Sequence record: PX246730.1
DNA length: 64,000 nucleotides
Strand: one strand, 5' to 3'
Source of the DNA: a phage
Part shown: one piece after another, positions 1,995-56,384 of the stretch
Layout: every line of letters starts with the position of its first letter
Numbering within the stretch: the stretch's first letter is position 1
Made by a program: the position numbers and the translations under genes
The notes under the pieces: model-generated
The model's database searches: none
Told to the model about the DNA's origin: nothing
The model's input: only the letters and a program-made list of their open reading frames with translations

Positions 1995-2056
1995 GTCCTA
2001 CATAGAAACGAAATGAGAGCTTTTCTAAGATACTGAAAAATATTTTAAAAAAGTTC

Positions 2057-2086
2057 TTGACAACCACTAAAAAATAATGTTAAAGT
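2057..2086 (+). promoter_or_regulatory. sigma70-like promoter candidate preceding tRNA cluster
   Basis: TTGACA 2057-2062, -10-like TAAAGT about 2081-2086, immediately upstream of first tRNA. Confidence 0.4.
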
Positions 2087-2112
2087 GGTTACATAGAGTT
2101 TGAAAAGTTTAT

Positions 2113-2186
2113 CTCTGTTTAGCTCAGCTTGGTAGAGCGTTCCGTTTGGGGCGGTAAGGCCGGAGGTTCAAGTCCTCCAACAGAGA
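2113..2186 (+). tRNA. tRNA-Pro(TGG)
   Basis: 7 bp acceptor CTCTGTT/AACAGAG, D-stem GCTC/GAGC, anticodon loop ttTGGgg, T-arm GGAGG-TTCAAGT-CCTCC, CCA encoded. Confidence 0.7.
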
Positions 2187-2196
2187 CCAAATTAAT

Positions 2197-2271
2197 GTTC
2201 CAGTAGACAAAATGGTATAGTCACCACTCTTTCAAAGTGGATATTTGAGGGTTCAAATCCCTTCTGGAACG
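2197..2271 (+). tRNA. tRNA-Glu(TTC)
   Basis: acceptor GTTCCAG/CTGGAAC, anticodon stem CCACT/AGTGG with loop ctTTCaa, T-loop TTCAAAT, CCA encoded. Confidence 0.7.
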
Positions 2272-2285
2272 CCAGTTTTGACAGA

Positions 2286-2352
2286 AGACCAATTGCAGCA
2301 AACTTAATCTTATTCATCTGAAGGTAAATCGGACAAAGAAGAGATTTGGTCT
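2286..2352 (+). repeat. spacer hairpin element copy a (CAGAAGACCAA ... TTGGTCTGG)
   Basis: inverted repeat AGACCAA/TTGGTCT flanking about 55 nt; conserved internal motif cagcaaaCTTAA; first of four paralogous copies. Confidence 0.6.
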
Positions 2353-2365
2353 GGTCATTAAGAAT

Positions 2366-2439
2366 TGCGGGTATAGAGAAAGGGCGTCTCACATGTCTCA
2401 TTAGCATGGTATCGGCAGGTTCGACTCCTGCACCCGCCT
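2366..2439 (+). tRNA. tRNA with CAT anticodon (Met, fMet or Ile2)
   Basis: acceptor pairs with ACCCGCC with 1:72 mismatch, D-stem GAGA/TCTC, anticodon stem CATGT/GCATG with loop ctCATta, T-arm GCAGG-TTCGACT-CCTGC. Confidence 0.55.
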
Positions 2440-2452
2440 CCAAATTTACAGA

Positions 2453-2511
2453 AGACCGTTTACAGCAATACTTATTAAATTTTTAGCGGAAAAAATTGAA
2501 AGATACGGTCT
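2453..2511 (+). repeat. spacer hairpin element copy b (AGACCGT ... ACGGTCT)
   Basis: same conserved 5' motif tttacagaagaccgtttacagcaa and 3' ggtctggtaat as copies a, c, d. Confidence 0.6.
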
Positions 2512-2526
2512 GGTAATACTAAACAT

Positions 2527-2600
2527 GGTTAGGAAGCACATAAGGTATGTGCGGTCGCCTGTTAAGCGAATGGCACAGGGTTCGAATCCCTGACTAACCG
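2527..2600 (+). tRNA. tRNA-Asn(GTT)
   Basis: acceptor GGTTAGG/ACTAACC (6 of 7 bp), anticodon loop ctGTTaa, T-arm CAGGG-TTCGAAT-CCCTG. Confidence 0.6.
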
Positions 2601-2611
2601 CAAAATTTAAA

Positions 2612-2698
2612 TGTGTCGTTATCCCGTAGATGGTAGCGGTGGGGACTGTAAATCCCTTGTCATTGAGACTCGGTAGGTTCGACTCCTACACGGCACAC
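2612..2698 (+). tRNA. tRNA-Tyr(GTA)
   Basis: acceptor TGTGTCG/CGGCACA, anticodon stem GGGGA/TCCCT with loop ctGTAaa, long variable arm, T-loop TTCGACT, CCA encoded. Confidence 0.7.
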
Positions 2699-2764
2699 CA
2701 ATTTTGAGAGGGCTATTTAGCCCCTCCCTTAAAGAGTTCTTACGAGTATTCTTTAAAGGAGCAG

Positions 2765-2833
2765 AAGACCAAATACAGCAAGTTACTTAAAATTTCAAGC
2801 CAATTTAATTTTGAAAAATTTAAAACTTGGTCT
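2765..2833 (+). repeat. spacer hairpin element copy c (AGACCAA ... TTGGTCT)
   Basis: conserved gcagaagaccaaatacagcaagttacttaa and cttggtctgg. Confidence 0.6.
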
Positions 2834-2852
2834 GGCTCAACAAATTTACAGA

Positions 2853-2978
2853 AGACCGTTTACAGCAAAACTTAAACAATCTATTTCTCTGGTAAAGAAA
2901 AGGCGAAGGTTCGATTCCTTCACTCGGCAGATGTCGAGTTGGTGTAATGGTAGCACTTAAGATGATAAACAACGGTCT
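2853..2978 (+). repeat. spacer hairpin element copy d, enclosing tRNA-like pieces
   Basis: inverted repeat AGACCGT (2853-2859) / ACGGTCT (2972-2978) flanks the permuted tRNA-Thr-like segment. Confidence 0.6.
2884..2957 (+). tRNA. tRNA-Thr(GGT)-like, apparently circularly permuted (3' two-thirds upstream of 5' third)
   Basis: 2884-2929: anticodon arm TTTCT-ctGGTaa-AGAAA, T-arm GAAGG-TTCGATT-CCTTC, 3' acceptor ACTCGGC plus discriminator; 2933-2957: 5' acceptor GTCGAGT (pairs 7 of 7 with ACTCGGC incl. one GU) plus complete D-arm GTGT-aatggta-GCAC. Confidence 0.35.
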
Positions 2979-3129
2979 GGTAATTATCTTTGTAGATAAG
3001 TTATTAAGCTTACCTGTGAGTATGCGACCACAAAGGGTGAAAGGGTAAATTCTAGATTTAAACCCAACAAGGCACATCGCTACAGACCTTAAGCAAGTCT
3101 GGGTAGCTTATCTACAAAGATAATTTAAT

Positions 3130-3202
3130 GGAAGTGTAGCAGAATGGTGATGCGGCAGACTTTTAATCTGACAGGCGATGGGTTCGAATCCCTCCACTTC
3201 TA
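3130..3202 (+). tRNA. tRNA-Lys(TTT) (probable)
   Basis: acceptor GGAAGTG/CACTTCT, anticodon loop ctTTTaa, T-loop TTCGAAT, CCA encoded; T-stem imperfect. Confidence 0.55.
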
Positions 3203-3209
3203 CCAATAT

Positions 3210-3283
3210 GGTTCAGTCGCAGATAAGGTAATGCAGGGGTCTCATAAGCCCTATGAATGTGGGTTCGATTCCCATCTGAACCT
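3210..3283 (+). tRNA. tRNA with CAT anticodon (Met, fMet or Ile2)
   Basis: perfect acceptor GGTTCAG/CTGAACC, anticodon stem GGGGT/GCCCT with loop ctCATaa, T-arm GTGGG-TTCGATT-CCCAT, CCA encoded. Confidence 0.65.
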
Positions 3284-3288
3284 CCAAT

Positions 3289-3361
3289 GCTGTGAAAGCA
3301 CATATGGATGTGCATTCGGCTGATAACCGAAAGGAAGAAGGTTCGAATCCTTCTCACAGTA
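3289..3361 (+). tRNA. tRNA-Ile(GAT)
   Basis: acceptor GCTGTGA/TCACAGT, D-stem GCAC/GTGC, anticodon stem TTCGG/CCGAA with loop ctGATaa, T-arm GAAGG-TTCGAAT-CCTTC, CCA encoded. Confidence 0.75.
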
Positions 3362-3379
3362 CCAATTTCAATAAAGTTG

Positions 3380-3408
3380 TTGACACTGAGATGTGACTAC
3401 TTTATAGT
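3380..3408 (+). promoter_or_regulatory. sigma70-like promoter (TTGACA-N17-TATAGT) inside tRNA cluster
   Basis: -35 TTGACA 3380-3385, -10 TATAGT 3403-3408. Confidence 0.55.
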
Positions 3409-3613
3409 AACCTTAGTTTTCGTTGCGTAGCGTCTATTTTGCAAATTTAAAATAAATGCAAACGACAATGTTTTTCTGGCAGTAGCTTGATAGGCTAAAC
3501 ACCAGTGAGGTCTTCCAATCCCTCATCAAAGAATTTGGCGTACTAGCCCACGGTATGATTAATAAGGTGGGCATCTTTAAGGGCTTTCTAAGAGAGTCTT
3601 TAAAGATTAATTA

Positions 3614-3692
3614 CGGGGCGTATCTCATCTGTCTTCTAAACAGACGTTAACCGAGTAAGTGGAGTATGCGGGTTCGAGTCCTGCCGCCTCGA
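3614..3692 (+). tRNA. tRNA-like element with TCT (Arg-type) anticodon loop, atypical D region
   Basis: acceptor CGGGGCG/CGCCTCG, perfect anticodon arm TCTGT-ctTCTaa-ACAGA, T-loop TTCGAGT, CCA encoded; only 7 nt between acceptor and anticodon stem, 22 nt before T-arm. Confidence 0.4.
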
Positions 3693-3838
3693 CCAATTTA
3701 GTTAGCAGATTACTTAGACGACCTAAGCGGGTCTTCCTGTAGGGAGGTGGTCTGTATCTCATGTTTTCCAGAACATGTAAATAATCTGAGAAGGGGCTTT
3801 ACAGTGTTGAGATAATACGGTAAGCTTCGAATTATAGT

Positions 3839-3918
3839 ATGGGACGATGTTAAGACTCTAAGGCATGAGCAACGGCTTCCAACACCGTTTCAAAGGGGTT
3901 CGACTCCTCCGTCCCATG
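3839..3918 (+). tRNA. tRNA, anticodon unresolved (possibly Trp CCA)
   Basis: perfect acceptor ATGGGAC/GTCCCAT, T-loop TTCGACT, CCA encoded; anticodon region ACGG-cttCCAaca-CCGT has a 9-nt loop. Confidence 0.45.
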
Positions 3919-3934
3919 CCAAAGTCTTATTAGG

Positions 3935-4022
3935 GGTAGGTAGCGGCTAATGGTAGCCAAACTGTCTTGAAAACAGTTGCCACTGTAGAGATACGGTGAG
4001 GGTTCGACTTCTTTACTTACCG
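3935..4022 (+). tRNA. tRNA-Ser(TGA)
   Basis: acceptor GGTAGGT/ACTTACC, anticodon arm ACTGT-ctTGAaa-ACAGT, long variable arm, T-loop TTCGACT. Confidence 0.7.
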
Positions 4023-4178
4023 CCTAATAAGATTTTAAAGCCAAGCTTCATTCGGATGTTGCTTTGGTATCCCTCGTGTTGTCGAACACACTAATAAAGC
4101 ACCTAGTAGGTGTCACGGAGAAGAGATAATATCAAGCTCTCCAAAGGTTCTAGTCACCGGATTAAACAAGACTATGCA

Positions 4179-4200
4179 AAGACCTTTTTAGGTCTTTTTA
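4179..4200 (+). terminator. hairpin plus T-run (possible intrinsic terminator or processing site)
   Basis: AAGACC-ttttta-GGTCTT followed by TTTA. Confidence 0.4.
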
Positions 4201-4278
4201 GAGGGCTTCTAAGGTTATTACAGCTTGTTGTGGAACCTTGTTGCTTAGGTTCTTAGAAGTTCTCTAAAAAGATTTAAT

Positions 4279-4353
4279 GGGAGATTGACGGTAATTGGTA
4301 AACCTATCTCGCTTAGAACGAGATGTTTGAGGGTTCGAATCCCTTGTCTCCTA
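4279..4353 (+). tRNA. tRNA-Leu(TAG), short variable loop
   Basis: acceptor GGGAGAT/GTCTCCT, anticodon arm ATCTCG-ctTAGaa-CGAGAT, T-arm GAGGG-TTCGAAT-CCCTT, CCA encoded. Confidence 0.55.
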
Positions 4354-4363
4354 CCAAATTAAT

Positions 4364-4436
4364 GCAGGTGTAGCAAAATGGTTATGCGGCTGACTCTTAA
4401 TCAGTAAGACGATGGGTTCAATTCCCTCCACCTGTA
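4364..4436 (+). tRNA. tRNA-Lys(CTT) (probable)
   Basis: acceptor GCAGGTG/CACCTGT, D-stem GCA/TGC, anticodon arm GCTGA-ctCTTaa-TCAGT, T-loop TTCAATT, CCA encoded. Confidence 0.6.
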
Positions 4437-4445
4437 CCAGATATT

Positions 4446-4518
4446 GGGGATGTAGTTTACATGGTTAAAACATAAGTTTTGCAAAATTAAGTACAGGGTT
4501 CAATTCCCTGCTTCTCCA
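4446..4518 (+). tRNA. tRNA-Ala(TGC)
   Basis: acceptor with G3:T70 wobble pair (Ala identity element), D-stem GTTT/AAAC, anticodon loop ttTGCaa, T-arm CAGGG-TTCAATT-CCCTG, CCA encoded. Confidence 0.65.
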
Positions 4519-4527
4519 CCAATTAGT

Positions 4528-4599
4528 GCATCCATAGTTTAAACGGGAAAATTACAGTCTTCCAAACTGAGGTTGAGGGTTCGATTCCCTCTGGATGCT
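4528..4599 (+). tRNA. tRNA-Gly(TCC)
   Basis: perfect acceptor GCATCCA/TGGATGC, anticodon arm CAGT-ctTCCaa-ACTG, T-arm GAGGG-TTCGATT-CCCTC, CCA encoded. Confidence 0.7.
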
Positions 4600-4608
4600 C
4601 CAAATAAT

Positions 4609-4682
4609 GCTGCTTTCGTATAATTGGCTATTACACATCCCTTGTAAGGATGGAAATGCAGGTTCGAGTCCTGTGAGCAGCA
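4609..4682 (+). tRNA. tRNA-Thr(TGT)
   Basis: acceptor GCTGCTT/GAGCAGC, anticodon arm CATCC-ctTGTaa-GGATG, T-arm GCAGG-TTCGAGT-CCTGT, CCA encoded. Confidence 0.75.
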
Positions 4683-4780
4683 CCAATTCAGAGGTCAAGT
4701 GAAAGACCGCTGGTGTCAACTGAAGACCGTAACAAATTCCACGGAGTTGAGTTAGCGGCACAACTTCAGACCTCTTTCAC

Positions 4781-4852
4781 ACTCGCTTAGTTTATATGGT
4801 AAAACACCACCCTTACAAGATGAAGAAAAAGGTTCAAGTCCTTTAGTGAGTA
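4781..4852 (+). tRNA. tRNA-Val(TAC) (tentative; weak anticodon stem)
   Basis: acceptor ACTCGCT/AGTGAGT, D-stem GTTT/AAAC, loop ctTACaa, perfect T-arm AAAGG-TTCAAGT-CCTTT, CCA encoded. Confidence 0.45.
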
Positions 4853-4856
4853 CCAT

Positions 4857-4931
4857 GTTCCAGTATCCCAATTGGCAGAGGATGCAAGCTCAAACCTTGT
4901 ACTAGTGACGGTTCGAATCCGTCTTGGAACA
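4857..4931 (+). tRNA. tRNA-Leu(CAA), short variable loop
   Basis: acceptor GTTCCAG/TTGGAAC, D-stem TCC/GGA with 11-nt loop, anticodon arm GCAAG-ctCAAac-CTTGT, T-arm GACGG-TTCGAAT-CCGTC, CCA encoded. Confidence 0.55.
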
Positions 4932-4939
4932 CCAATTTT

Positions 4940-5012
4940 GCAGGATTAGTTCAAATGGATAGAGCAACAGTCTACGAAGCTGTTAATAGGGGTTCGAATC
5001 CCTTATCCTGCG
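4940..5012 (+). tRNA. tRNA-Arg(ACG)
   Basis: perfect acceptor GCAGGAT/ATCCTGC, anticodon arm ACAGT-ctACGaa-GCTGT, T-arm TAGGG-TTCGAAT-CCCTT, CCA encoded. Confidence 0.75.
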
Positions 5013-5034
5013 CCAATTTAAAGAGGCTATTTAG

Positions 5035-5592
5035 ATGAGATATTTGAAGTATGCTTCATGGATTTTCTTAGCTTTGTTAGAGCCATTTGCAGCAATCTTA
5101 GCAGTAATTTTAGCACCCTTTGTGGTTCCATTCTACAGTGAAAAGAAAGGACACTTACCTTTTGGATTCAGATGGATGGAGACTTATGATAACCCAATTG
5201 ATGGTGACAAAGGCCACGTTGAGAGATGGGCTAAGATTAGAAAGATTGGTAAGCTCGGTGTTTATATGCAGAGAGTTGGATGGCTCTGGAGAAACAAAGC
5301 TTATAACTTCTCTTACCATGTGCTAGGAAGAGATGTAAAAGATGTTACTAAGTGGAAAGGTAATATCAACGTAAGTTCTAACCCTGAAGATAATCAGACA
5401 GGTTATCTCCTAATGTGGAACAGTAATGCTTGGGGATTATTCGCTTTTACCCCATCAATTAAAATCTTTGGTAAACAATTCTACTGGAGAATTTATGTTG
5501 GATGGAAACTTAAAAGTGTTGTCCCAGAAGAAAGAGCATTCTCAAGGGAAAGAGTTATGTTGGCATTCTTTATTCATCCACTAAGAAAGTAA
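5035..5592 (+). CDS. hypothetical membrane protein (185 aa) embedded in tRNA cluster
   Basis: ORF track; hydrophobic N-terminal segment (IFLALLEPFAAILAVILAPFVVPF); Trp/aromatic-rich. Confidence 0.5.
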   Translation: MRYLKYASWIFLALLEPFAAILAVILAPFVVPFYSEKKGHLPFGFRWMETYDNPIDGDKGHVERWAKIRKIGKLGVYMQRVGWLWRNKAYNFSYHVLGRDVKDVTKWKGNINVSSNPEDNQTGYLLMWNSNAWGLFAFTPSIKIFGKQFYWRIYVGWKLKSVVPEERAFSRERVMLAFFIHPLRK

Positions 5593-5600
5593 AGATTTAA

Positions 5601-5673
5601 AGGGGATTAGTTTACAAGGTTAAAACCTCGGTCTTTGAAATCGAAGAAGTTGGTTCAATTCCAACATCCCCCA
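5601..5673 (+). tRNA. tRNA-Gln(TTG)
   Basis: acceptor AGGGGAT/ATCCCCC (1:72 mismatch), D-stem GTTT/AAAC, anticodon arm TCGGT-ctTTGaa-ATCGA, T-arm GTTGG-TTCAATT-CCAAC, CCA encoded. Confidence 0.6.
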
Positions 5674-5678
5674 CCAAT

Positions 5679-5754
5679 GCTCCATTACTCCAATTGGCAG
5701 AGAGGCCAGACTTAAAATCTGTGTTATGTATCGGTTCGAATCCGATATGGAGTA
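5679..5754 (+). tRNA. tRNA-Leu(TAA), short variable loop
   Basis: acceptor GCTCCAT/ATGGAGT, D-arm paralogous to the CAA tRNA (caattggcaga), loop ctTAAaa, T-arm ATCGG-TTCGAAT-CCGAT, CCA encoded. Confidence 0.55.
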
Positions 5755-5762
5755 CCAAATTT

Positions 5763-5835
5763 AGCGGTATAGCATAACTGGCAATGCAGCAGTCTCTGAA
5801 GCTGTCCTATTAAGGTTCAAATCCTTATGCCGCTG
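5763..5835 (+). tRNA. tRNA-Gln(CTG)
   Basis: acceptor AGCGGTA/TGCCGCT, anticodon arm GCAGT-ctCTGaa-GCTGT, T-arm TAAGG-TTCAAAT-CCTTA, CCA encoded. Confidence 0.6.
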
Positions 5836-5869
5836 CCACTTCTAAGGGTTCTTACGAGAGTCCTTAAAT

Positions 5870-5942
5870 GTGGCCTTATCATAAAAGGTAATGACCCATG
5901 CTGTGAACATGGTCTATACGGGTTCAAATCCCGTAGGTCACC
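5870..5942 (+). tRNA. tRNA-His(GTG)
   Basis: acceptor GTGGCCT/AGGTCAC, anticodon arm CCATG-ctGTGaa-CATGG, T-arm ACGGG-TTCAAAT-CCCGT, CCA encoded. Confidence 0.75.
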
Positions 5943-5950
5943 CCAATTTA

Positions 5951-6024
5951 TAGTCCAAGTAGCTTATATGGTAAAGCGCGTGTCTGAAAAACATGAGAAG
6001 AGGGTTCAAATCCCACTGGACTAC
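5951..6024 (+). tRNA. tRNA-Phe(GAA)
   Basis: acceptor TAGTCCA/TGGACTA, anticodon arm CGTGT-ctGAAaa-ACATG, T-loop TTCAAAT. Confidence 0.7.
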
Positions 6025-6042
6025 CAATTTCAAAGGTGCTTA

Positions 6043-6777
6043 ATGAAAGAGATGACAGAACAAGGTAAGGAGATTTTTAATCTCTTAAAAACCGGTAGAG
6101 GGTTTTCTAATCCCCTTATTACTGGTGCAGCAGTTCTCGGTGGAACCGTAGCTGCCTCTACATCACTTGTAAGCTCTATTAGCTCTGTAACAGACCCTAC
6201 AATAAAAGATAAGCTTGTTGCTGCTGGGCTTACAACAGTCCTCCTAAACAGCTTTACAACAAGCCTGACAAGCACTACAGCAACTACTAAGACCCTGACA
6301 GACTACGGTCAAAAGTCTATTGATGAGTTTTCATCACGTATGCAGGTAGCAAAGGGATACTCCAATGTTATGGGTGCAGCAGGAGAACAAGTTGGTTGTA
6401 CACCATTCAGTGGTATTATGGGTGTTGCTACAGAGTATGGTCAAAAAGCTATTGACATGATGAACAGTACACTAGATAGTGTTAATGGTGTGTTAAGTGA
6501 CTTACAAGATGCTATTGATAAGGGTCTTGATACTGTTTCTGATTTAGCTAACCAAGCTGTTAGTAAGATTAATGAAGGTATCTCGAAGATTACAGCTTAT
6601 GCAGATGAAGTTGTGCAGATGATTGAAGAAGAAGCTGCCCTTATTGCAGAGTACCTTAAAACGAATATCAATGGGTTCTTAGCAGGTATCTTACCAGACT
6701 GGTTTGATGATGCCTGTAAAACTGGTGTAATTGACACTATTGCAACACCAGAAATGAAGAGCGCATTACAGAAATAA
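6043..6777 (+). CDS. hypothetical Ser/Thr-rich protein (244 aa)
   Basis: ORF 5827-6777 trimmed to ATG at 6043 because upstream part overlaps tRNA-His/Phe; no motif recognised. Confidence 0.5.
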   Translation: MKEMTEQGKEIFNLLKTGRGFSNPLITGAAVLGGTVAASTSLVSSISSVTDPTIKDKLVAAGLTTVLLNSFTTSLTSTTATTKTLTDYGQKSIDEFSSRMQVAKGYSNVMGAAGEQVGCTPFSGIMGVATEYGQKAIDMMNSTLDSVNGVLSDLQDAIDKGLDTVSDLANQAVSKINEGISKITAYADEVVQMIEEEAALIAEYLKTNINGFLAGILPDWFDDACKTGVIDTIATPEMKSALQK

Positions 6778-6778
6778 T

Positions 6779-6868
6779 GGAAGATTAACCCTAAAAGGTA
6801 AGGGAGCAGTTTGCTAAACTGCCAGTAGCTGAGAAATCGGTGTACCAGTTCAAGTCTGGTATCTTCCT
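6779..6868 (+). tRNA. tRNA-Ser(GCT)
   Basis: perfect acceptor GGAAGAT/ATCTTCC, perfect anticodon arm GCAGT-ttGCTaa-ACTGC, long variable arm, T-arm ACCAG-TTCAAGT-CTGGT, CCA encoded. Confidence 0.8.
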
Positions 6869-6875
6869 CCAATTT

Positions 6876-6948
6876 GAATCCGTGACAGAAATGGATATGT
6901 GCCTGTCTGCAAAACAGGTTTATAAGGGTTCGAGTCCCTTCGGATTCT
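6876..6948 (+). tRNA. tRNA-Cys(GCA)
   Basis: perfect acceptor GAATCCG/CGGATTC, perfect anticodon arm CCTGT-ctGCAaa-ACAGG, T-arm AAGGG-TTCGAGT-CCCTT, CCA encoded. Confidence 0.8.
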
Positions 6949-6988
6949 CCAAGTTATTTTACTCTCTCTCAATTAAAATAATAATAAT

Positions 6989-7048
6989 GCCCTGCTATAA
7001 GTATTCTTCCTTTCGCTACCGAAGAGTATTTTTAGACAGGGCTTTTTT
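6989..7048 (+). terminator. long hairpin plus T6 run, likely terminator at end of tRNA operon
   Basis: GCCCTG ... CAGGGC stem followed by TTTTTT (7043-7048). Confidence 0.55.
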
Positions 7049-7113
7049 ACAGAGTTATACTTTATAGGAAGACTTATACAGTATGTCTCTGACGTACATT
7101 GTGGTTTCTCCTT

Positions 7114-7137
7114 GACGGTCTCTGTGCCGTCTTTTTT
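7114..7137 (+). terminator. intrinsic terminator-like hairpin
   Basis: GACGG-tctctgtg-CCGTC followed by TTTTTT. Confidence 0.5.
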
Positions 7138-7173
7138 AAGGAGAAACAAGATTAATTATTTGGAGAAAACATA

Positions 7174-7374
7174 ATGAGTGAGAACGTTTATAAAGAACTT
7201 TATGAAGCTAACAAGAAGTTAGAGTTTATGCAGAATACTATCATGGCAATTGCAGATAGATTATCTGTAGCAACAGGTATTGATATTAAAGAAGCATCTA
7301 TGGATGCACTTCTTGATGCTGTTGATGCAAAGTTCGAAGTTAAGAAAGAAGAGACTGCTACAGACTCTGAATAA
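7174..7374 (+). CDS. hypothetical protein (66 aa)
   Basis: ORF track, RBS-like GGAG upstream; immediately precedes terminase. Confidence 0.45.
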   Translation: MSENVYKELYEANKKLEFMQNTIMAIADRLSVATGIDIKEASMDALLDAVDAKFEVKKEETATDSE

Positions 7375-39285: not shown

Positions 39286-39553
39286 CAATACACTCGCAAG
39301 GTGTACCAGTTCTCTTATGAACTTCTCCGCATTTCTACGGAGTGTCGGACTATATCACGTAGTAGTAATACTACCGTTGCACTTGGGAATGGTCATTAGC
39401 TTACCACCCTACTCTACTCAGTTCATACATTAAGTATGCTTTTCGATAGTCTCTGAACGTTCCTCTTAAGAGGCTTCGCTGCTGATTACCATATCTTTAC
39501 AGACTTAGGCTTCCAGCAATTCACAACGTTTTACATGCGCCACTGACGCATAA
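39286..39553 (-). mobile_element. group I intron in DNA polymerase gene (no internal ORF)
   Basis: on minus strand, in order: P-like AATTGCTGGAAG (about 39510-39521), Q-like AATCAGCAGC (39478-39487), R GTTCAGAGACTA (39447-39459), S GATATAGTCC (39346-39356); 5' exon ends in U, intron ends in G. Confidence 0.7.
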
Positions 39554-41718
39554 ATGCCATTTTTGGCTTTCTTACGACCTTTTGTAATCTCGTGGAGAAG
39601 TTCCTCATCCTGTGTCTCCCTACAACGAACAATGTCTTCTTCCTTGTTCAGACCAAAGTAAATACTGTTCAGTGTATGCGCATCAGTCCCTGTGTAGACT
39701 TCATAGAGGTCGTTCTCAGCATCATAACGAAGATACTTGTCAGTTTCTGGATTAAGATACTTATCGAGATGCTTGCAATAGTATCTACCGTCATCTTGCT
39801 TAGTGAACTCTACTGACTCTTTACCCTCAGTTACTGCTTTGGTGAACTCTTTATCACCCATAAAGTTACAAAGGAGAACTAGCTGTGCAGAGTTCTGGTC
39901 AACTGAAACGATATTAGTCCCTTCCTCGCAAATCCACACCTCCCTCATAGGCGCTCCATAGACAGCAGCACCAGACGGTACGTTTACAATACCATATTGT
40001 GTCATACGTCCAGTTGAAGTACCAAACACCATTGCACCAGCACTAAGGCGACCATCAGGACGAATCTGGTTCAACCAACCTTTTTCATCATCCTTTGAGT
40101 TCTCAATAGTTCTACGTCGGTGCATCAAAGTATAGTACTTAGCAATCTTCTGTCCAAGCTCACCTTCAATCGTGTCATAAGATGACTCAGTAAGCTTTGG
40201 TGAAGTACGGATTAAACAAGGCTCAAGCAAATCTGTGTATTTTTTCACAGACCAGTTATGCTCAATGTACTGTACACCTTCATGCTCAACATAGCTCAAA
40301 CCACACCGCTCAACCATTTCCTGCCACTTAGGATGTTTTGTAATCATCTTTTTATTGTCTTTGAAACGACAAACCTTAACAGGGCGACCGTCTGAGTCTT
40401 TCTTGTAGTTCCAGTCATCTGGAATCCAACCAACTGATTTCAAGTAGTCTTTAACAACTGCTACCTGAGTCATACGAGAAACTTCAAACTCAATTGGTGT
40501 ATATGGTGCATCAATCAAACCTGTGTAGCGACTTGACTCAAGTTCAAAGTGGTTAACAACATGACTGTTATAGTACTTCACGGTTTTGACTGTTTTTACT
40601 GGCTTCCAGTCTTTGCATTTCTTACCAATCTTTGCGTTCAAATCATTGCAAATTGCACGAGCATCCTTCATTGCTACAAAGCCTTCCTTGTACTCTTCAC
40701 CAGTTACAGAGTTGGTTGGTGTATAGCAATTTCTCTTTTCAATGTTAAAAATCTTTGTAGTTGGCTTACCAAATGGTTTGATTTCGTATGTCTGCATCTC
40801 ACCGTTACGTACCTGTTGACGATACTTTGTCTTAGGATACTTGGTAATTCTTTTCAGTCCATCTGCATGACCAAACGTTTCAACATACTCATTCCAAGCT
40901 TTTGCAAACTCTTCTCCAGTCACTTTACCTTTGGTCTTAATAGTTGGAGGAAGGTGTGGTTCAACCTCTGAAGCAAGCTCATTAGTCAACTTGTCAAGTT
41001 CCTTTACATGGAACTCCATAAGCTCCTTATCAGCTTTCCAACCATTGATAGCCTGTTGACTCATCCAGAAAGATGTTTCTTTAGCTCGCATGTAGGTTTC
41101 ATAAGTGTCTATGCCACACTTCTTAAGCTTGAGATACTCGTTATCAAGTGCCCGTTTAGTTTTGGCGTTAATACGGATATCTTCTACAACACGAGTGAAG
41201 ATTTCTGCATTCCACACACCCCAATGTTCAATCTCTGGTTTACGAACACCAACACGAGCACCCCATGCAGCCAAACCATGAGCACCTTTATAGCCCTTTG
41301 GAGTTGGTCTATCCATCCACTGAACACGAGACTGAATAAGAGAATCCTGAAAGAAATTACTCCACGGCTTACACTTTGGATTATCAAAGTTCCATAAATC
41401 AGGTGCAATGTGATTGAAAACCCACCAGTCATAACCGAGACCATTATGGATGCAAAGGCGTTTTGCCTTTAACGCAAATTCAACACCTTCACGTAAGCCG
41501 CCCTTGATGTACTTGGTATACTTGTGACCGAGGATAGGCTCATCTGTAAAGACCCATACAGGTGGCTCTTCATCGTCAGATTTATAGTCTGCGAAAGCCA
41601 TTACGTGAACTTTAGTGAACTCAAGGAGTAAACCATCAGTTTCTGTATCACCAACCAAATGTAAGTTTTTAAAATCTACGTTTTCCATTTTCACTCCCTC
41701 TAAAATCATTAACCACAT
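39554..41718 (-). CDS. DNA polymerase (family A) exon 1, with 3'-5' exonuclease domain
   Basis: Exo I motif GDTETDGL; polymerase motif A region VDQNSAQLVLL; motif B start RKKAKNGI; ORF continues into intron to stop at 39505. Confidence 0.75.
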
Positions 41719-54871: not shown

Positions 54872-56068
54872 ATGAACAAAGTACAGATTATTAAAAAGAA
54901 TGGCTCACTCGAAGAACCTGATATCAAAAAAGTTTTAGTAGCAGTCACAAAGTCAGCTAACAGAGTTGGTTATAAAGAGCTTCCACCAGATGTTACTCAA
55001 GCTCTTGAGTCAGCATTTATGAGGATTCTGGTAAAGTCCACTAAGCAGAATAATTTGCTAATTTCTGTAAATGATATTCACAGTATTGTTGAAGGTGCTT
55101 TGGCAGAAGTCAATCACGAGATTTATGAGTCTTACTCAACATACAGAAATTATCGTAAAGAGGTTGCTCAAAATTGGGATGAGCTTTACCAAAAGACTAA
55201 AGACACACTCTTCTTAGGTGACCGTGAAAACGCTAACTTTGACAGTAGTTTAATTTCTACAAAAGGCTCAATTATTCGTGGTTACCTGACTAAAGAAATC
55301 TTTAAACAGTACCATTTAACACCAGAGGAACTCGAATCCATTGAAAAAGGGTTTATCTACATCCATGACTTAAGAGACCTAATTTTTGGTGGGATTAACT
55401 GTTGCCTGTTTGACATTGGTAAAGTACTGAAAGGTGGCTTTGAAATGTCTGGCATCGAATACTGTGAACCAAAATCTGTACTGTCAGCCTTACAAGTTAT
55501 TGGTGATGTAGTTCTTTCAGCAACTGCACAGCAATTTGGTGGCTTTACTTTAGCAGAGATTGATAAGGTACTTGTACCGTATGCTAAGAAGTCTCTACGC
55601 TATCATGCTGAGAAAGCAGCATCTTATGGTATTCCTAAAGAACATTACCACAATTATGTCATGGAGCAGCTACAGATTGAACTGACTCAAGGTTTCCAGT
55701 CACTTGAAATGAAACTAAACACTGTGCCTTGTAGTCGTGGGGATTTTGCATTCACAACTTTGACATTCGGGTTGCTTGACTCAGATATGTCCAATGAAGA
55801 TAACCGACTGCAATATATGATTGCAAGTACTCTCCTAGATGTTCGTATGAATGGACAAGGTAAGAGCAAGAAGCCTGTTGTATTCCCTAAACTGGTTTAT
55901 ATTTATGACCAGAAGAGACACGATGAGAATATCTGTCAAGGCCACCTGTACAGTAAAGCTATTGAGTGTTGCTCTAAAGCTATGTATCCAGATTTCTTAA
56001 GTGTATCTGGTCATGGTGCTGTAGCAGAGGCTTTTGAGCGTTCTGGTAAGGTTATTTCACCGATGGGT
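54872..56068 (+). CDS. nrdD: anaerobic ribonucleotide reductase exon 1
   Basis: N-terminal ATP-cone-like region; ORF ends SPMG then in-frame stop inside intron. Confidence 0.75.
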
Positions 56069-56384
56069 TAACAAGCTCTATAGCTCATCTAAAACGTGCC
56101 TAAACAGGGAAACTCTACAGATGTAGACAATCCTGTGCTAAATGATGTATGATGTAAGAAACTATACAACATAGGAGTCTTACATGCCAAATAACTTCGA
56201 ATACGAGTTTGAATACATCTAAATGCCGAACGACTAACCGTGATGAATGTAGCGGTGTAGGGTCAAGCGACTCGAAATGGTACGCTACTTAGAAATAAGT
56301 AGAAGATATAGTCTGGACTTACTGGCGACAGTAAGCAGCTTGAATAAAGCGGGGTAAGCTTAGCGAACTTACCTGAACAACAAG
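56069..56384 (+). mobile_element. group I intron in nrdD (316 nt, no internal ORF)
   Basis: P-like CAGGGAAA (56105-56112), Q-like AATCCTGTGC (56129-56138), R-like CGAACGACTAAC (56227-56238), S AAGATATAGTC (56303-56313); 5' exon ends in T, intron ends in G; splicing gives in-frame SPMG|CRAFLSP. Confidence 0.7.

What the first reader, a model, noticed from the sequence alone, without database searches (positions are those of the whole stretch)
3614..3692. tRNA-like gene with canonical Arg(TCT) anticodon arm but no normal D-arm
The acceptor stem, perfect anticodon arm (ctTCTaa) and T-arm with encoded CCA are present, but only 7 nt separate the acceptor from the anticodon stem and 22 unstructured nt precede the T-arm. 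It could be a D-arm-lacking tRNA, a tRNA-derived regulatory RNA or a decaying gene.
Basis: seen in the sequence. Interest (0 to 1): 0.45.

Follow-up and report, generated by a model that had tools for sequence, protein, structure and literature searches.

The report
Rewired D-arm arginine tRNA of phages
The element is a real, strongly conserved phage gene for an arginine tRNA (anticodon UCU) whose D-arm is not missing but rewired, so it is not a cloverleaf; I found no description of such a tRNA for bacteria or their viruses in the literature I could search.

Summary
Window 3614-3692 (+CCA to 3695) has a 7-bp acceptor stem, a perfect Arg(UCU) anticodon arm and a normal T-arm. Only 7 nt lie before the anticodon stem and 23 nt (not 22) after it.

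It is not decaying and the linkers are not unstructured. The window is a Felix O1-like phage. About 58 distinct copies with the same 82-nt, indel-free layout occur in unrelated phage groups. All stems covary. A further 3-4 bp helix ("helix X", 3624-3627 with 3652-3655) pairs the 5' linker with the middle of the 3' linker. This nests the anticodon arm inside a D-stem-like helix. A D-loop-like UAAnUGGAGUAU sits just before the T-arm.

An anticodon-blind probe recovered only UCU or CCU. A second, larger subfamily carries ACG, also Arg. With position 35 not C, only two plausible copies exist in all of IMG/VR.

The element lies co-oriented inside tRNA arrays and usually fills the empty Arg-UCU slot. 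In sister phages a canonical tRNA-Arg(UCU) replaces it precisely. AGA is 38% of this phage's Arg codons.

Best reading: a working AGA decoder. Charging is inferred, not shown. No description was found in the literature searched.

The parts
3380..3408 (+). Promoter-like site TTGACA-17 nt-TATAGT. It probably starts the transcript that carries the tag-like leader and the tRNA.
   Evidence: Best sigma-70-type match in 2000-7200 (11 of 12). A 'promoter' feature is annotated at the homologous place in phage AYO145A. Function is inferred.
3614..3620 (+). Acceptor stem, 5' strand (CGGGGCG). It pairs with 3685-3691 and includes a G3616.U3689 wobble (the G3.U70 position).
   Evidence: All 7 pairs show double compensatory changes in the family; 99.1% of cells are paired.
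3621..3623 (+). Invariant UAU linker, in the U8-A9 position.
   Evidence: TAT in 58 of 58 distinct UCU/CCU-family copies and in the ACG subfamily. These columns were not fixed by the search pattern.
3624..3627 (+). Helix X, 5' strand (CUCA).
   Evidence: Pairs with 3652-3655. Column pairs 12-41 (UA 34, GC 7, AU 6, none unpaired) and 13-40 (CG 41, GC 4, UA 2). Mutual information 1.30 and 0.80 bits.
3628..3644 (+). Anticodon arm UCUGU-CUUCUAA-ACAGA; anticodon UCU at 3635-3637, U33 and A37 present.
   Evidence: All 5 stem pairs covary. Loops in the family: CUUCUAA 50, CUUCUAC 3, UUUCUAC 3, UUUCUAA 1, UUCCUAA 1.
3645..3651 (+). Conserved 7-nt bulge CGUUAAC between the anticodon stem and the helix X 3' strand.
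   Evidence: Consensus C-R-U-Y-A-A-N in all copies. It is shortened to 3-5 nt in the ACG subfamily.
3652..3655 (+). Helix X, 3' strand (CGAG).
   Evidence: See helix X 5' strand. Eight different Watson-Crick combinations of the three core pairs were seen.
3656..3667 (+). D-loop-like joiner UAAGUGGAGUAU. G3661-G3662 are candidates for G18-G19 and A3663 for A20, the main ArgRS determinant.
   Evidence: UAA(n)YGGAGUAU in all UCU-family copies. This was partly imposed by the pattern but also recovered with the independent 5' pattern. UAAYUGGA is kept in the ACG subfamily. It resembles the AAYUGGA D-loop of the canonical phage tRNA-Arg. The assignment of positions 18-20 is inference.
3668..3684 (+). 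T-arm GCGGG-UUCGAGU-CCUGC.
   Evidence: Canonical UUCRANY loop; 98.3% of stem cells paired, with covariation.
3685..3695 (+). Acceptor 3' strand CGCCUCG, discriminator A3692, encoded CCA 3693-3695.
   Evidence: Discriminator is G in 31, A in 24, U in 2 and C in 1 of 58 copies. CCA is encoded in 39 of 58. Neighbouring tRNAs mostly also encode CCA where this one does.

Best explanation
The element is a phage gene for an arginine tRNA that reads AGA (and probably AGG). It belongs to a structural class that is not a cloverleaf. [quoted passage not shown] In place of a D hairpin, the 5' linker (UAU-CUCA) pairs with the middle of the long 3' linker (CGAG) to form a short helix X that encloses the anticodon arm and stacks on it, with a conserved 7-nt bulge (CGUUAAC) on one strand. 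The D-loop sequence (UAAnUGGAG, holding the G18-G19-like and A20-like bases) is relocated to the 12-nt joiner between helix X and the T-arm. From there it could still touch the T-loop and present A20 to arginyl-tRNA synthetase. The core is therefore a three-way junction (acceptor, helix X, T-arm) with re-routed strands.

Shown here: the conservation, the helices, the restriction to Arg anticodons, the genomic context and the allelic exchange with a canonical tRNA-Arg(UCU).

Inferred: transcription from the promoter-like site at 3380, RNase P processing, the L-shape, charging with arginine and use on the ribosome to serve the phage's many AGA codons.

Why phages keep this fold is open. Escape from host nucleases or enzymes that recognise the normal D-arm or core of tRNA-Arg is a plausible but untested reason.
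For: (1) Family and fold. IMG/VR and GenBank phages hold about 58 distinct copies with an identical, indel-free layout. On 47 of them, 94.5% of cells are paired, the covariation score is 0.733 against 0.184 in shuffles (0 of 500 reach it), and all slid controls collapse to 0.15 or less. Unbiased mutual information ranks the helix X pairs among the true stems. The family model separates members (82-102 bits) from ordinary tRNAs (34 bits or less).

(2) Arg specificity. The anticodon-blind probe gave only UCU (57) or CCU (1). A second subfamily with the same signature (UAU-C...G-UAAYUGGA) carries ACG and hit the 120-locus limit. The same probe with position 35 not C returned only 2 plausible copies in IMG/VR. 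Discriminators are mostly A or G, with U73 common in the ACG subfamily. C35, U/G36 and an A after GG match the bacterial Arg identity set (A20, C35, U/G36, A/G/U73; PMC9976931).

(3) Context. In 86 loci, all 752 neighbouring tRNA genes are co-oriented with it. Large arrays hold Arg-ACG plus this element and no canonical Arg-UCU. Only L041 and L070 also hold a separate canonical Arg-UCU; the Arg-tct call in L053 is a divergent second copy of the rewired kind.

(4) Allelic exchange. Felixounavirus JK55 and about 87 other records carry a canonical tRNA-Arg(UCU) at exactly this place. Flanks are identical up to the tRNA ends. About 130 records carry the rewired allele.

(5) Demand. AGA is 38% of Arg codons (16.5 per 1000) in the window's long ORFs. 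The Felix O1 genome paper noted that a tRNA for the over-used AGA was expected but not found (PMC3185647).

(6) Feasibility. E. coli HisRS, EF-Tu and the ribosome accept a D-arm-less tRNA (PMC11551756).

(7) Not host DNA. No match in 5,426 E. coli genomes. Only 4 true copies in 185,579 species genomes, all on MAG contigs that also carry co-located tRNA genes (1 to 14 in the 6-8 kb read).
Against: There is no expression, processing or aminoacylation evidence for this or any family member. The assignment of G18, G19 and A20 to the joiner is by analogy only, and no 3D model was made. Columns 42-64 of alignment A2 were fixed by the search pattern, so their invariance there is partly circular. This is mitigated by the independent 5'-pattern scan and by BLAST hits. 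The single-sequence fold is not more stable than shuffles (z = -0.23), and helix X is only 3 Watson-Crick pairs plus an A.C. The window's copy has G3.U70 with A73, the alanine identity mark, so mischarging with Ala is conceivable. Some copies lack CCA inside arrays whose other genes encode it. D-arm-less tRNAs are prone to PNPase degradation in E. coli (PMC11551756).
Confidence: 0.7

Rival explanations
1. It is a non-decoding tRNA mimic. It is made and perhaps even charged, but its job is to act as a decoy, inhibitor or sensor for a host factor that binds tRNA-Arg (a tRNA-targeting defence nuclease, ArgRS, or a modification enzyme), not to deliver arginine to the ribosome.
For: The core differs from the canonical one while the anticodon loop is strictly kept. 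Phage tRNAs are known to neutralise tRNA-cleaving defence systems, and some defence nucleases are reported to cut D-loops or variable loops (PMC11464382 and PMC11555353, listed; PMC12916289). Two loci (L041, L070) carry both a canonical Arg-UCU and the rewired one.
Against: A decoy would not be expected to replace the only phage tRNA-Arg(UCU) in AGA-rich phages. It would also not need a standard acceptor/T-arm with CCA and A/G73. The same fold is used with three different Arg anticodons (UCU, CCU, ACG), which fits decoding of different codons.
Confidence: 0.17
2. It is the tRNA-like domain of a phage tmRNA-like system. Together with the tag-encoding element just upstream (3449-3573), it would be charged with alanine through G3.U70 and rescue stalled ribosomes or tag proteins.
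For: Rfam's tmRNA model aligns 3365-3695 (22.5 bits, E 3.7e-7 within that stretch), using the upstream tag region and the T-arm/acceptor of this element. The window's copy has G3616.U3689 and A73. The upstream ORF ANDNVFLAVA* resembles the E. coli SsrA tag.
Against: The score is far below the tmRNA gathering score of 47. Only 14 of 86 family loci (all Felixounavirus) have the tag element upstream. G3.U70 occurs in only 8 of 47 copies. The same tag element is followed by a canonical tRNA-Arg in JK55 and by tRNA-Leu in phiEa21-4. tmRNA has no anticodon, whereas here the Arg anticodon loop is the most conserved part. RNase P would be expected to separate the two RNAs.
Confidence: 0.05
3. It is a degenerating tRNA-Arg pseudogene, or a normal cloverleaf that was misread.
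For: ARAGORN fails to call it. The Rfam tRNA score is the lowest in the array. Annotators label it tRNA-OTHER or leave it unannotated.
Against: Seven nucleotides cannot form a D hairpin. RNAalifold finds no pairs inside the 23-nt segment. The layout is indel-free, the linkers are invariant and every stem shows compensatory changes across phage families, which is incompatible with decay.
Confidence: 0.02

Closest known systems
Canonical bacterial/phage tRNA-Arg(UCU) (e.g. E. coli argU, T4 tRNA-Arg, the JK55 allele at this locus)
   Same: 7-bp acceptor, 5-bp anticodon stem with CUUCUAA loop, 5-bp T-stem with UUCGANU loop, A/G73, encoded CCA, AAYUGGA-type D-loop sequence, location in a phage tRNA array, same locus in sister phages.
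   Different: No D hairpin. The D-stem-like helix is made from strands on either side of the anticodon arm. The D-loop motif lies 3' of the anticodon arm. There is a 7-nt conserved bulge. The core is a three-way rather than a four-way junction.
D-arm-lacking mitochondrial tRNA-Ser(AGY/AGN), including nematode mt-tRNA-Ser(UCU)
   Same: No D hairpin and short connectors, and the anticodon can be UCU (PMC7609411). From my own knowledge, not checked here: connector pairs are thought to extend the anticodon stem.
   Different: Those are organellar, shortened and flexible, often with a reduced T-arm, charged with serine and served by adapted factors. This one is longer than a normal tRNA (79 nt + CCA), keeps a full T-arm and a GGA D-loop motif, and must work with ordinary bacterial factors.
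Engineered D-arm-less 'mini HisT' used by E. coli (Edelmann et al. 2024, PMC11551756)
   Same: Shows that the bacterial synthetase, EF-Tu and ribosome tolerate a tRNA without a D-arm.
   Different: It is artificial, lacks the D region altogether, and needed a pnp mutation for stability. The phage family is natural and keeps a rebuilt D-stem and D-loop motif.
tmRNA tRNA-like domain, including the TLD-only gene of mycobacteriophage DS6A (PMC4131195)
   Same: Phage-encoded, acceptor plus T-arm with a reduced D region. The window's copy has G3.U70.
   Different: tmRNA TLDs have no anticodon arm and need G3.U70. Here the anticodon loop is conserved and G3.U70 is not (8 of 47). Rfam tmRNA score is 22.5 against 47.
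Non-canonical 8/4 and 9/3 tRNAs of bacteria and phages (Mukai et al., PMC5389517); circularly permuted tRNA genes of Cyanidioschyzon (my own knowledge)
   Same: Precedents for irregular tRNAs in phage tRNA clusters and for rearranged tRNA gene order.
   Different: The 8/4 and 9/3 tRNAs keep a D-arm and a cloverleaf. Permuted genes are processed back into a normal cloverleaf. Here the re-routing is internal and would persist in the mature RNA.

Membership tests
tRNA (Rfam RF00005) | Score at or above the curated gathering score | tested here: met
   33.4 bits against 29, at 3614-3692.
Canonical cloverleaf tRNA | 7-bp acceptor stem, 5-bp anticodon stem with 7-nt loop (U33, purine 37), 5-bp T-stem with UUCRANY loop, discriminator and CCA | tested here: met
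   Read from the sequence. All stems covary.
Canonical cloverleaf tRNA | D-arm hairpin between positions 9 and 26 | tested here: not met
   Only 7 nt lie between the acceptor and anticodon stems. Rfam deletes 15 D-arm positions. ARAGORN makes no call.
Bacterial tRNA-Arg identity set (A20, C35, U/G36, A/G/U73; PMC9976931) | C35 and U36 or G36 in the anticodon | tested here: met
   UCU in the window. The family has UCU, CCU and ACG only. Two plausible exceptions in IMG/VR.
Bacterial tRNA-Arg identity set (A20, C35, U/G36, A/G/U73; PMC9976931) | Discriminator A73 or G73 | tested here: met
   A3692 in the window. G in 31 and A in 24 of 58 copies.
Bacterial tRNA-Arg identity set (A20, C35, U/G36, A/G/U73; PMC9976931) | A20 in the D-loop, the main determinant | tested here: inconclusive
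   An invariant A follows the invariant GG (UGGA, A3663), as in AAYUGGA D-loops. It lies in a joiner, not in a D-loop, so the equivalence is inference.
Bacterial tRNA-Arg identity set (A20, C35, U/G36, A/G/U73; PMC9976931) | Charging by ArgRS | not testable with these tools
   Needs an aminoacylation assay.
tmRNA / tmRNA tRNA-like domain (RF00023) | Score at or above gathering; no anticodon; conserved G3.U70 | tested here: not met
   22.5 bits against 47. ARAGORN makes no tmRNA call. The anticodon loop is conserved. G3.U70 occurs in 8 of 47 copies.
D-arm-lacking mitochondrial tRNA-Ser | Organellar origin, shortened molecule, serine identity | tested here: not met
   The window is 97% identical to Felixounavirus genomes. 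The element is 79 nt + CCA. The anticodon set is Arg in the bacterial code.
Type II tRNA (long variable arm) | Self-paired hairpin in the long variable region | tested here: not met
   RNAalifold predicts no pairs within columns 32-54. Mutual information instead pairs columns 39-42 with 11-14.

The most novel reading that the evidence does not exclude
Phages carry a widespread, horizontally spreading class of functional arginine tRNAs (UCU, CCU and ACG) whose core is a topological isomer of the cloverleaf: the D-stem strands are re-routed around the anticodon arm and the D-loop is moved next to the T-arm. This class works with the unmodified bacterial translation apparatus. It would be the first natural non-cloverleaf elongator tRNA outside organelles. 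It may be kept because it escapes host factors that recognise the normal tRNA-Arg core.
Probability: 0.55. Interest if true: 0.85.

Novelty: new variant of a known kind. Interest (0 to 1): 0.78.

Why it matters
[quoted passage not shown] D-arm-less tRNAs are known from animal mitochondria, where the partner proteins have co-evolved. A natural family of re-wired tRNAs used in E. coli, Salmonella, Klebsiella, Erwinia and Streptomyces phages would show that the L-shape can be built from a different strand topology. It would give structural biologists a new solution to study with ArgRS, RNase P, EF-Tu and the ribosome, and it would offer a natural scaffold for orthogonal tRNA design.

It also closes a practical gap. 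The type genome paper of Felix O1 noted the missing AGA tRNA (PMC3185647). Standard finders miss these genes (3 of 86 called by ARAGORN), so phage tRNA repertoires and codon-adaptation analyses are systematically incomplete for arginine. If the fold protects against tRNA-directed defence nucleases, it adds a new move to the phage-host contest over tRNAs.

Tried and rejected
(1) Normal cloverleaf by refolding. The MFE and RNAalifold folds give no D-arm and no hairpin in the 23-nt segment.

(2) The CCG/UGG mini-hairpin in the single-sequence MFE fold. It is not supported: UGG is invariant while its partner columns vary and pair elsewhere.

(3) Link to the upstream tmRNA-like tag element. Rejected as a general property: 14 of 86 loci, one genus only. 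JK55 has the same tag element followed by a canonical tRNA-Arg.

(4) Host origin. No match in E. coli genomes. Of 10 genome-contig hits, 6 were chance matches, including the only isolate genome, a Pedobacter.

(5) The 5'-half pattern scan was mostly noise in AT-rich DNA. It added only 8 true copies and one 5' fragment (L113).

(6) Other amino acids with this fold. Only two candidates, both with Ile anticodons.

(7) Literature. Searches, and reading of PMC5389517, PMC7609411 and PMC8300805, found no description of this tRNA. The library is incomplete, so prior description elsewhere cannot be excluded.

(8) A tmRNA database supplement search for enterobacterial phage entries found nothing usable.

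Full report
WHAT IS THERE. The window is a Felix O1-like phage (Felixounavirus). Bases 2000-7000 are 97% identical to many such genomes. They carry an array of 24 ARAGORN-called tRNA genes, all on the + strand.

The finding lies in a 570-nt gap between tRNA-Ile (3289-3364) and tRNA-Ser (3935-4024).
- acceptor CGGGGCG / CGCCUCG (3614-3620 with 3685-3691)
- 7 nt, UAUCUCA
- anticodon arm UCUGU-CUUCUAA-ACAGA (anticodon UCU at 3635-3637)
- 23 nt (not 22), CGUUAACCGAGUAAGUGGAGUAU
- T-arm GCGGG-UUCGAGU-CCUGC
- discriminator A3692 and CCA

Rfam's tRNA model matches exactly these coordinates at 33.4 bits (gathering score 29). It deletes the D-arm and inserts 20 nt in the variable region. ARAGORN does not call it.

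IT IS A CONSERVED FAMILY, NOT A RELIC. BLAST of the 106 nt around the element finds it, at 84-88% identity, in phages unrelated to Felix O1:
- Justusliebigvirus
- Mydovirus
- the roughly 350-kb Asteriusvirus jumbo phages
- 109-kb Klebsiella phages such as Roth37
- Kolesnikvirus of Erwinia
- Streptomyces phages

Annotators either ignore it or call it tRNA-OTHER or tRNA-Arg.

A pattern scan of IMG/VR used only the 3' joiner plus the start of the T-arm, so it was blind to the anticodon. It returned 64 loci. Every distinct sequence fits one indel-free layout: 7 + UAU + 4 + 5/7/5 + 7 + 4 + 12 + 5/7/5 + 7 + 1.

On 47 distinct sequences the proposed structure has 94.5% of cells paired. Its covariation score is 0.733, against 0.184 in shuffles (0 of 500 reach it). 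It collapses when the partners are slid by 1-3 columns.

A covariance model built from them scores members at 82-102 bits and ordinary tRNAs at 34 bits or less.

Caveat: columns 42-64 of that alignment were fixed by the search pattern. Columns 1-41 were free, and an independent scan with a 5' pattern recovered the same 3' joiner.

THE LINKERS ARE STRUCTURED. The 5' linker and the middle of the 3' linker pair: C3624-G3655, U3625-A3654, C3626-G3653, and usually an A.C at 3627/3652.
- Across the family the three core pairs appear as CUC/GAG, CGC/GCG, CAC/GUG, CAG/CUG, CAU/AUG, CGG/CCG, CUU/AAG and CCC/GGG, and are never broken.
- An unbiased mutual-information scan ranks these pairs among the classical stems.
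- RNAalifold alone does not predict this short helix, and finds nothing else in the 23-nt segment.

I call this helix X. It encloses the anticodon arm, so the molecule has a three-way junction (acceptor, helix X, T-arm). The anticodon stem continues helix X across a conserved 7-nt bulge (C-R-U-Y-A-A-N).

The 12 nt after helix X (UAAnUGGAGUAU) resemble the D-loop of ordinary tRNA-Arg. Compare AACUGGACA in JK55 and AGUUGGAUA in L041.

In a normal tRNA the D-stem stacks on the anticodon stem, and G18-G19 of the D-loop touch the T-loop (established tRNA structure). Helix X and the UGG of the joiner could play these roles with re-routed strands. That step is inference; no 3D test was possible.

IT BEHAVES LIKE AN ARGININE tRNA GENE.

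(a) Anticodons. All 58 distinct copies found with anticodon-blind criteria carry UCU (57) or CCU (1).
- The model also picked up a relative with anticodon ACG in L074.
- A scan for that variant hit the 120-locus limit and gave 56 well-formed distinct sequences. They share the signature UAU-C...G-UAAYUGGA, have a shorter bulge, and show a covarying second pair in helix X.
- The same architectural probe with position 35 not C returned seven hits in all of IMG/VR. Only two look real, and both have Ile anticodons.
- C35, U/G36, A/G/U73 and A20 are the bacterial arginine identity set, and A20 in the D-loop is the main determinant for E. coli ArgRS (PMC9976931). The family keeps an invariant A right after the GG.

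(b) Context. In 86 loci all 752 neighbouring tRNA genes have the same orientation as the element.
- ARAGORN recognises the element in only 3 loci.
- Large arrays hold Arg-ACG plus this element and no canonical Arg-UCU.
- Only L041 and L070 also hold a separate canonical Arg-UCU. The third locus flagged by ARAGORN, L053, carries a divergent second copy of the rewired kind.

(c) Allelic exchange. Felixounavirus JK55 has a normal cloverleaf tRNA-Arg(UCU) at exactly this place. The flanks are identical up to the ends of the tRNA. In GenBank about 130 Felix-like records carry the rewired allele and about 87 the canonical one.

(d) Demand. AGA is the most used Arg codon in the window's long ORFs (38%; 16.5 per 1000). 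The Felix O1 genome paper listed AGA as over-used and remarked that a matching tRNA would have been expected; it found none between tRNA-Ile and tRNA-Leu (PMC3185647).

(e) Feasibility. E. coli HisRS, EF-Tu and the ribosome accept an engineered D-arm-less tRNA, with degradation by PNPase as the limiting factor (PMC11551756).

(f) The element is not host DNA. There is no match in 5,426 complete E. coli genomes. Only four true copies occur among 185,579 species genomes, all on MAG contigs that also carry tRNA genes (1 to 14 within the 6-8 kb read).

WHAT IT IS NOT.

A decaying gene is excluded by the covariation and the absence of indels.

A tmRNA part was considered seriously, for three reasons. 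Rfam's tmRNA model aligns 3365-3695 (22.5 bits against a gathering score of 47). An SsrA-like tag ORF lies 125 nt upstream. The window's copy has G3.U70 with A73. Against this:
- only the 14 Felixounavirus loci of 86 have the tag element upstream
- only 8 of 47 copies have G3.U70
- the same tag element precedes a canonical tRNA-Arg in JK55 and a tRNA-Leu in phiEa21-4
- a tmRNA has no anticodon

I keep it as a low-probability rival. Ala mischarging of the enterobacterial copies remains worth testing.

A non-decoding mimic (decoy) cannot be excluded without charging data. It is less economical given points (a) to (d).

HOW IT PROBABLY WORKS. A strong promoter-like site (TTGACA-17-TATAGT, 3380-3408) would give a transcript that contains the tag-like leader, this tRNA and downstream genes. 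RNase P and 3' trimming would release a 79-nt body with its encoded CCA (inferred from the standard acceptor/T-arm).

The acceptor/T-arm half is ordinary and should serve EF-Tu and the ribosome. Helix X plus the anticodon stem give a 9-layer arm, comparable to D-stem + 26.44 + anticodon stem. The UGG of the joiner would lock the elbow, and the following A would serve ArgRS. The RNA would then read AGA (and AGG by wobble) for the AGA-rich phage genes.

The reason for keeping this fold alongside the canonical one is unknown. Defence nucleases are reported to cut tRNA D-loops, variable loops, anticodon loops or acceptor stems, and phage tRNAs are reported to counter them (PMC12916289; PMC11464382, PMC11555353 and PMC13096335, listed). 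Escape from a factor that reads the normal tRNA-Arg core is therefore a reasonable hypothesis, but nothing here tests it. HNH endonuclease genes next to the element in several phages may explain its spread between unrelated phages.

NOVELTY. Six literature searches and several papers read gave no description of this tRNA class. Reviews of non-canonical tRNAs list D-arm-less tRNAs only for mitochondria (PMC7609411). A 2024 paper states that all known bacterial tRNAs are cloverleaves (PMC11551756).

The library is incomplete, and some annotations already label the gene tRNA-Arg, so the gene has been seen. I did not find the structure and the family described. I rate it a new variant of a known kind (a tRNA with a new core topology), of high interest to tRNA specialists.

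Noticed in passing
window 3449-3573 (tag ORF 3458-3487, stop TGA 3488-3490): A tmRNA-like mRNA-like element lies just upstream of the tRNA: AAUAAAU-GCA AAC GAC AAU GUU UUU CUG GCA GUA GCU UGA = ANDNVFLAVA*, followed by conserved hairpins. The same element occurs in unrelated phages (Kuttervirus, a Gamaleyavirus of the Schitoviridae, 46-kb Klebsiella phages, Kolesnikvirus) and in at least 120 IMG/VR loci. It always has a 10-codon ORF AN[D/E]xxx[L/R]x[A/V]A plus a stop (20 peptide variants, with synonymous changes). ARAGORN calls a tmRNA in 1 of 128 loci, and Rfam recognises no tRNA-like domain. Enterobacterial phages are not in the 2014 list of phage tmRNAs (PMC4131195). Its function, and the tRNA-like partner if any, are unknown.
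   Followed up: partly
window 3839-3921: A second irregular tRNA-like gene that ARAGORN does not call. It has an 8-bp acceptor AUGGGACG/CGUCCCAU, G73 and CCA, a 4-bp T-stem (an 8/4 layout), anticodon CCA (Trp) at 3879-3881 with a C.A closing the loop, a D-stem CUC/GAG with loop UAAGGCAU, and an extra GUUAAG 5' of the D-stem (compare CGUUAAC in the Arg tRNA). The anticodon stem and D-stem covary in Mooglevirus and Pectobacterium phage Arno18. It is present in 236 Ounavirinae records and is not annotated as a tRNA in any of the 30 records listed. The window has no other tRNA-Trp.
   Followed up: partly
window 3616 and 3689 (with A3692): The window's copy has a G3.U70 wobble, G2-C71, G4-C69 and A73. 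This is close to the alanine identity set of E. coli tRNA-Ala. Only the enterobacterial-phage clade of the family has it (8 of 47 copies). Ala mischarging at AGA codons is conceivable.
   Followed up: partly
L074 2689-2766, plus IMG/VR loci from L294 upward (reached with the pattern): A larger sister subfamily of the rewired fold with anticodon ACG (loop CUACGAA), a 3-5 nt bulge, and a D-loop-like joiner of variable length (13-17 nt), some with an inserted hairpin.
   Followed up: partly
L415 and L419 (IMG/VR contigs): Two copies of the rewired fold carry Ile-type anticodons (GAU and UAU) instead of Arg. These are possible anticodon-switched derivatives.
   Followed up: no
L053 13348-13429: A divergent relative (55.8 bits) with anticodon UCU, a helix X of about 2 bp, and a joiner UAAUUGGAUAGAACAU that looks even more like a canonical Arg D-loop. 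It lies in the same array as a CCU copy of the main family.
   Followed up: no
L113 6108-6183: A copy that keeps only the 5' half of the rewired tRNA (through the helix X 3' strand and UAA) and then diverges. It is an apparent truncated remnant.
   Followed up: no
window 39325-39608 (-) and 56011-56335 (+): Two group I intron matches above Rfam's gathering score (64.2 and 53.7 bits). The original Felix O1 paper reported that introns were absent (PMC3185647).
   Followed up: no
L003 1598-2107 (Roth37); several records: HNH homing-endonuclease genes lie directly beside or overlapping the rewired tRNA locus in several phages (Roth37, bumzen, SME50, K18PH07C1). In Felix O1 an HNH gene splits the region. 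This is a possible vehicle for the cassette-like exchange.
   Followed up: no
L180 1003-1070 and 475-546 (St11Ph5); L177 about 975-1045 (PhiSH19): By eye, acceptor/T-arm-containing tRNA-like pieces without a clear anticodon arm lie about 250-300 nt downstream of the tag-like element in these phages. St11Ph5 also has an odd 'tRNA-Ala(cgc)' upstream, with a tRNA-Sec-like 6-bp D-stem. Whether they partner the tag element is unknown.
   Followed up: no
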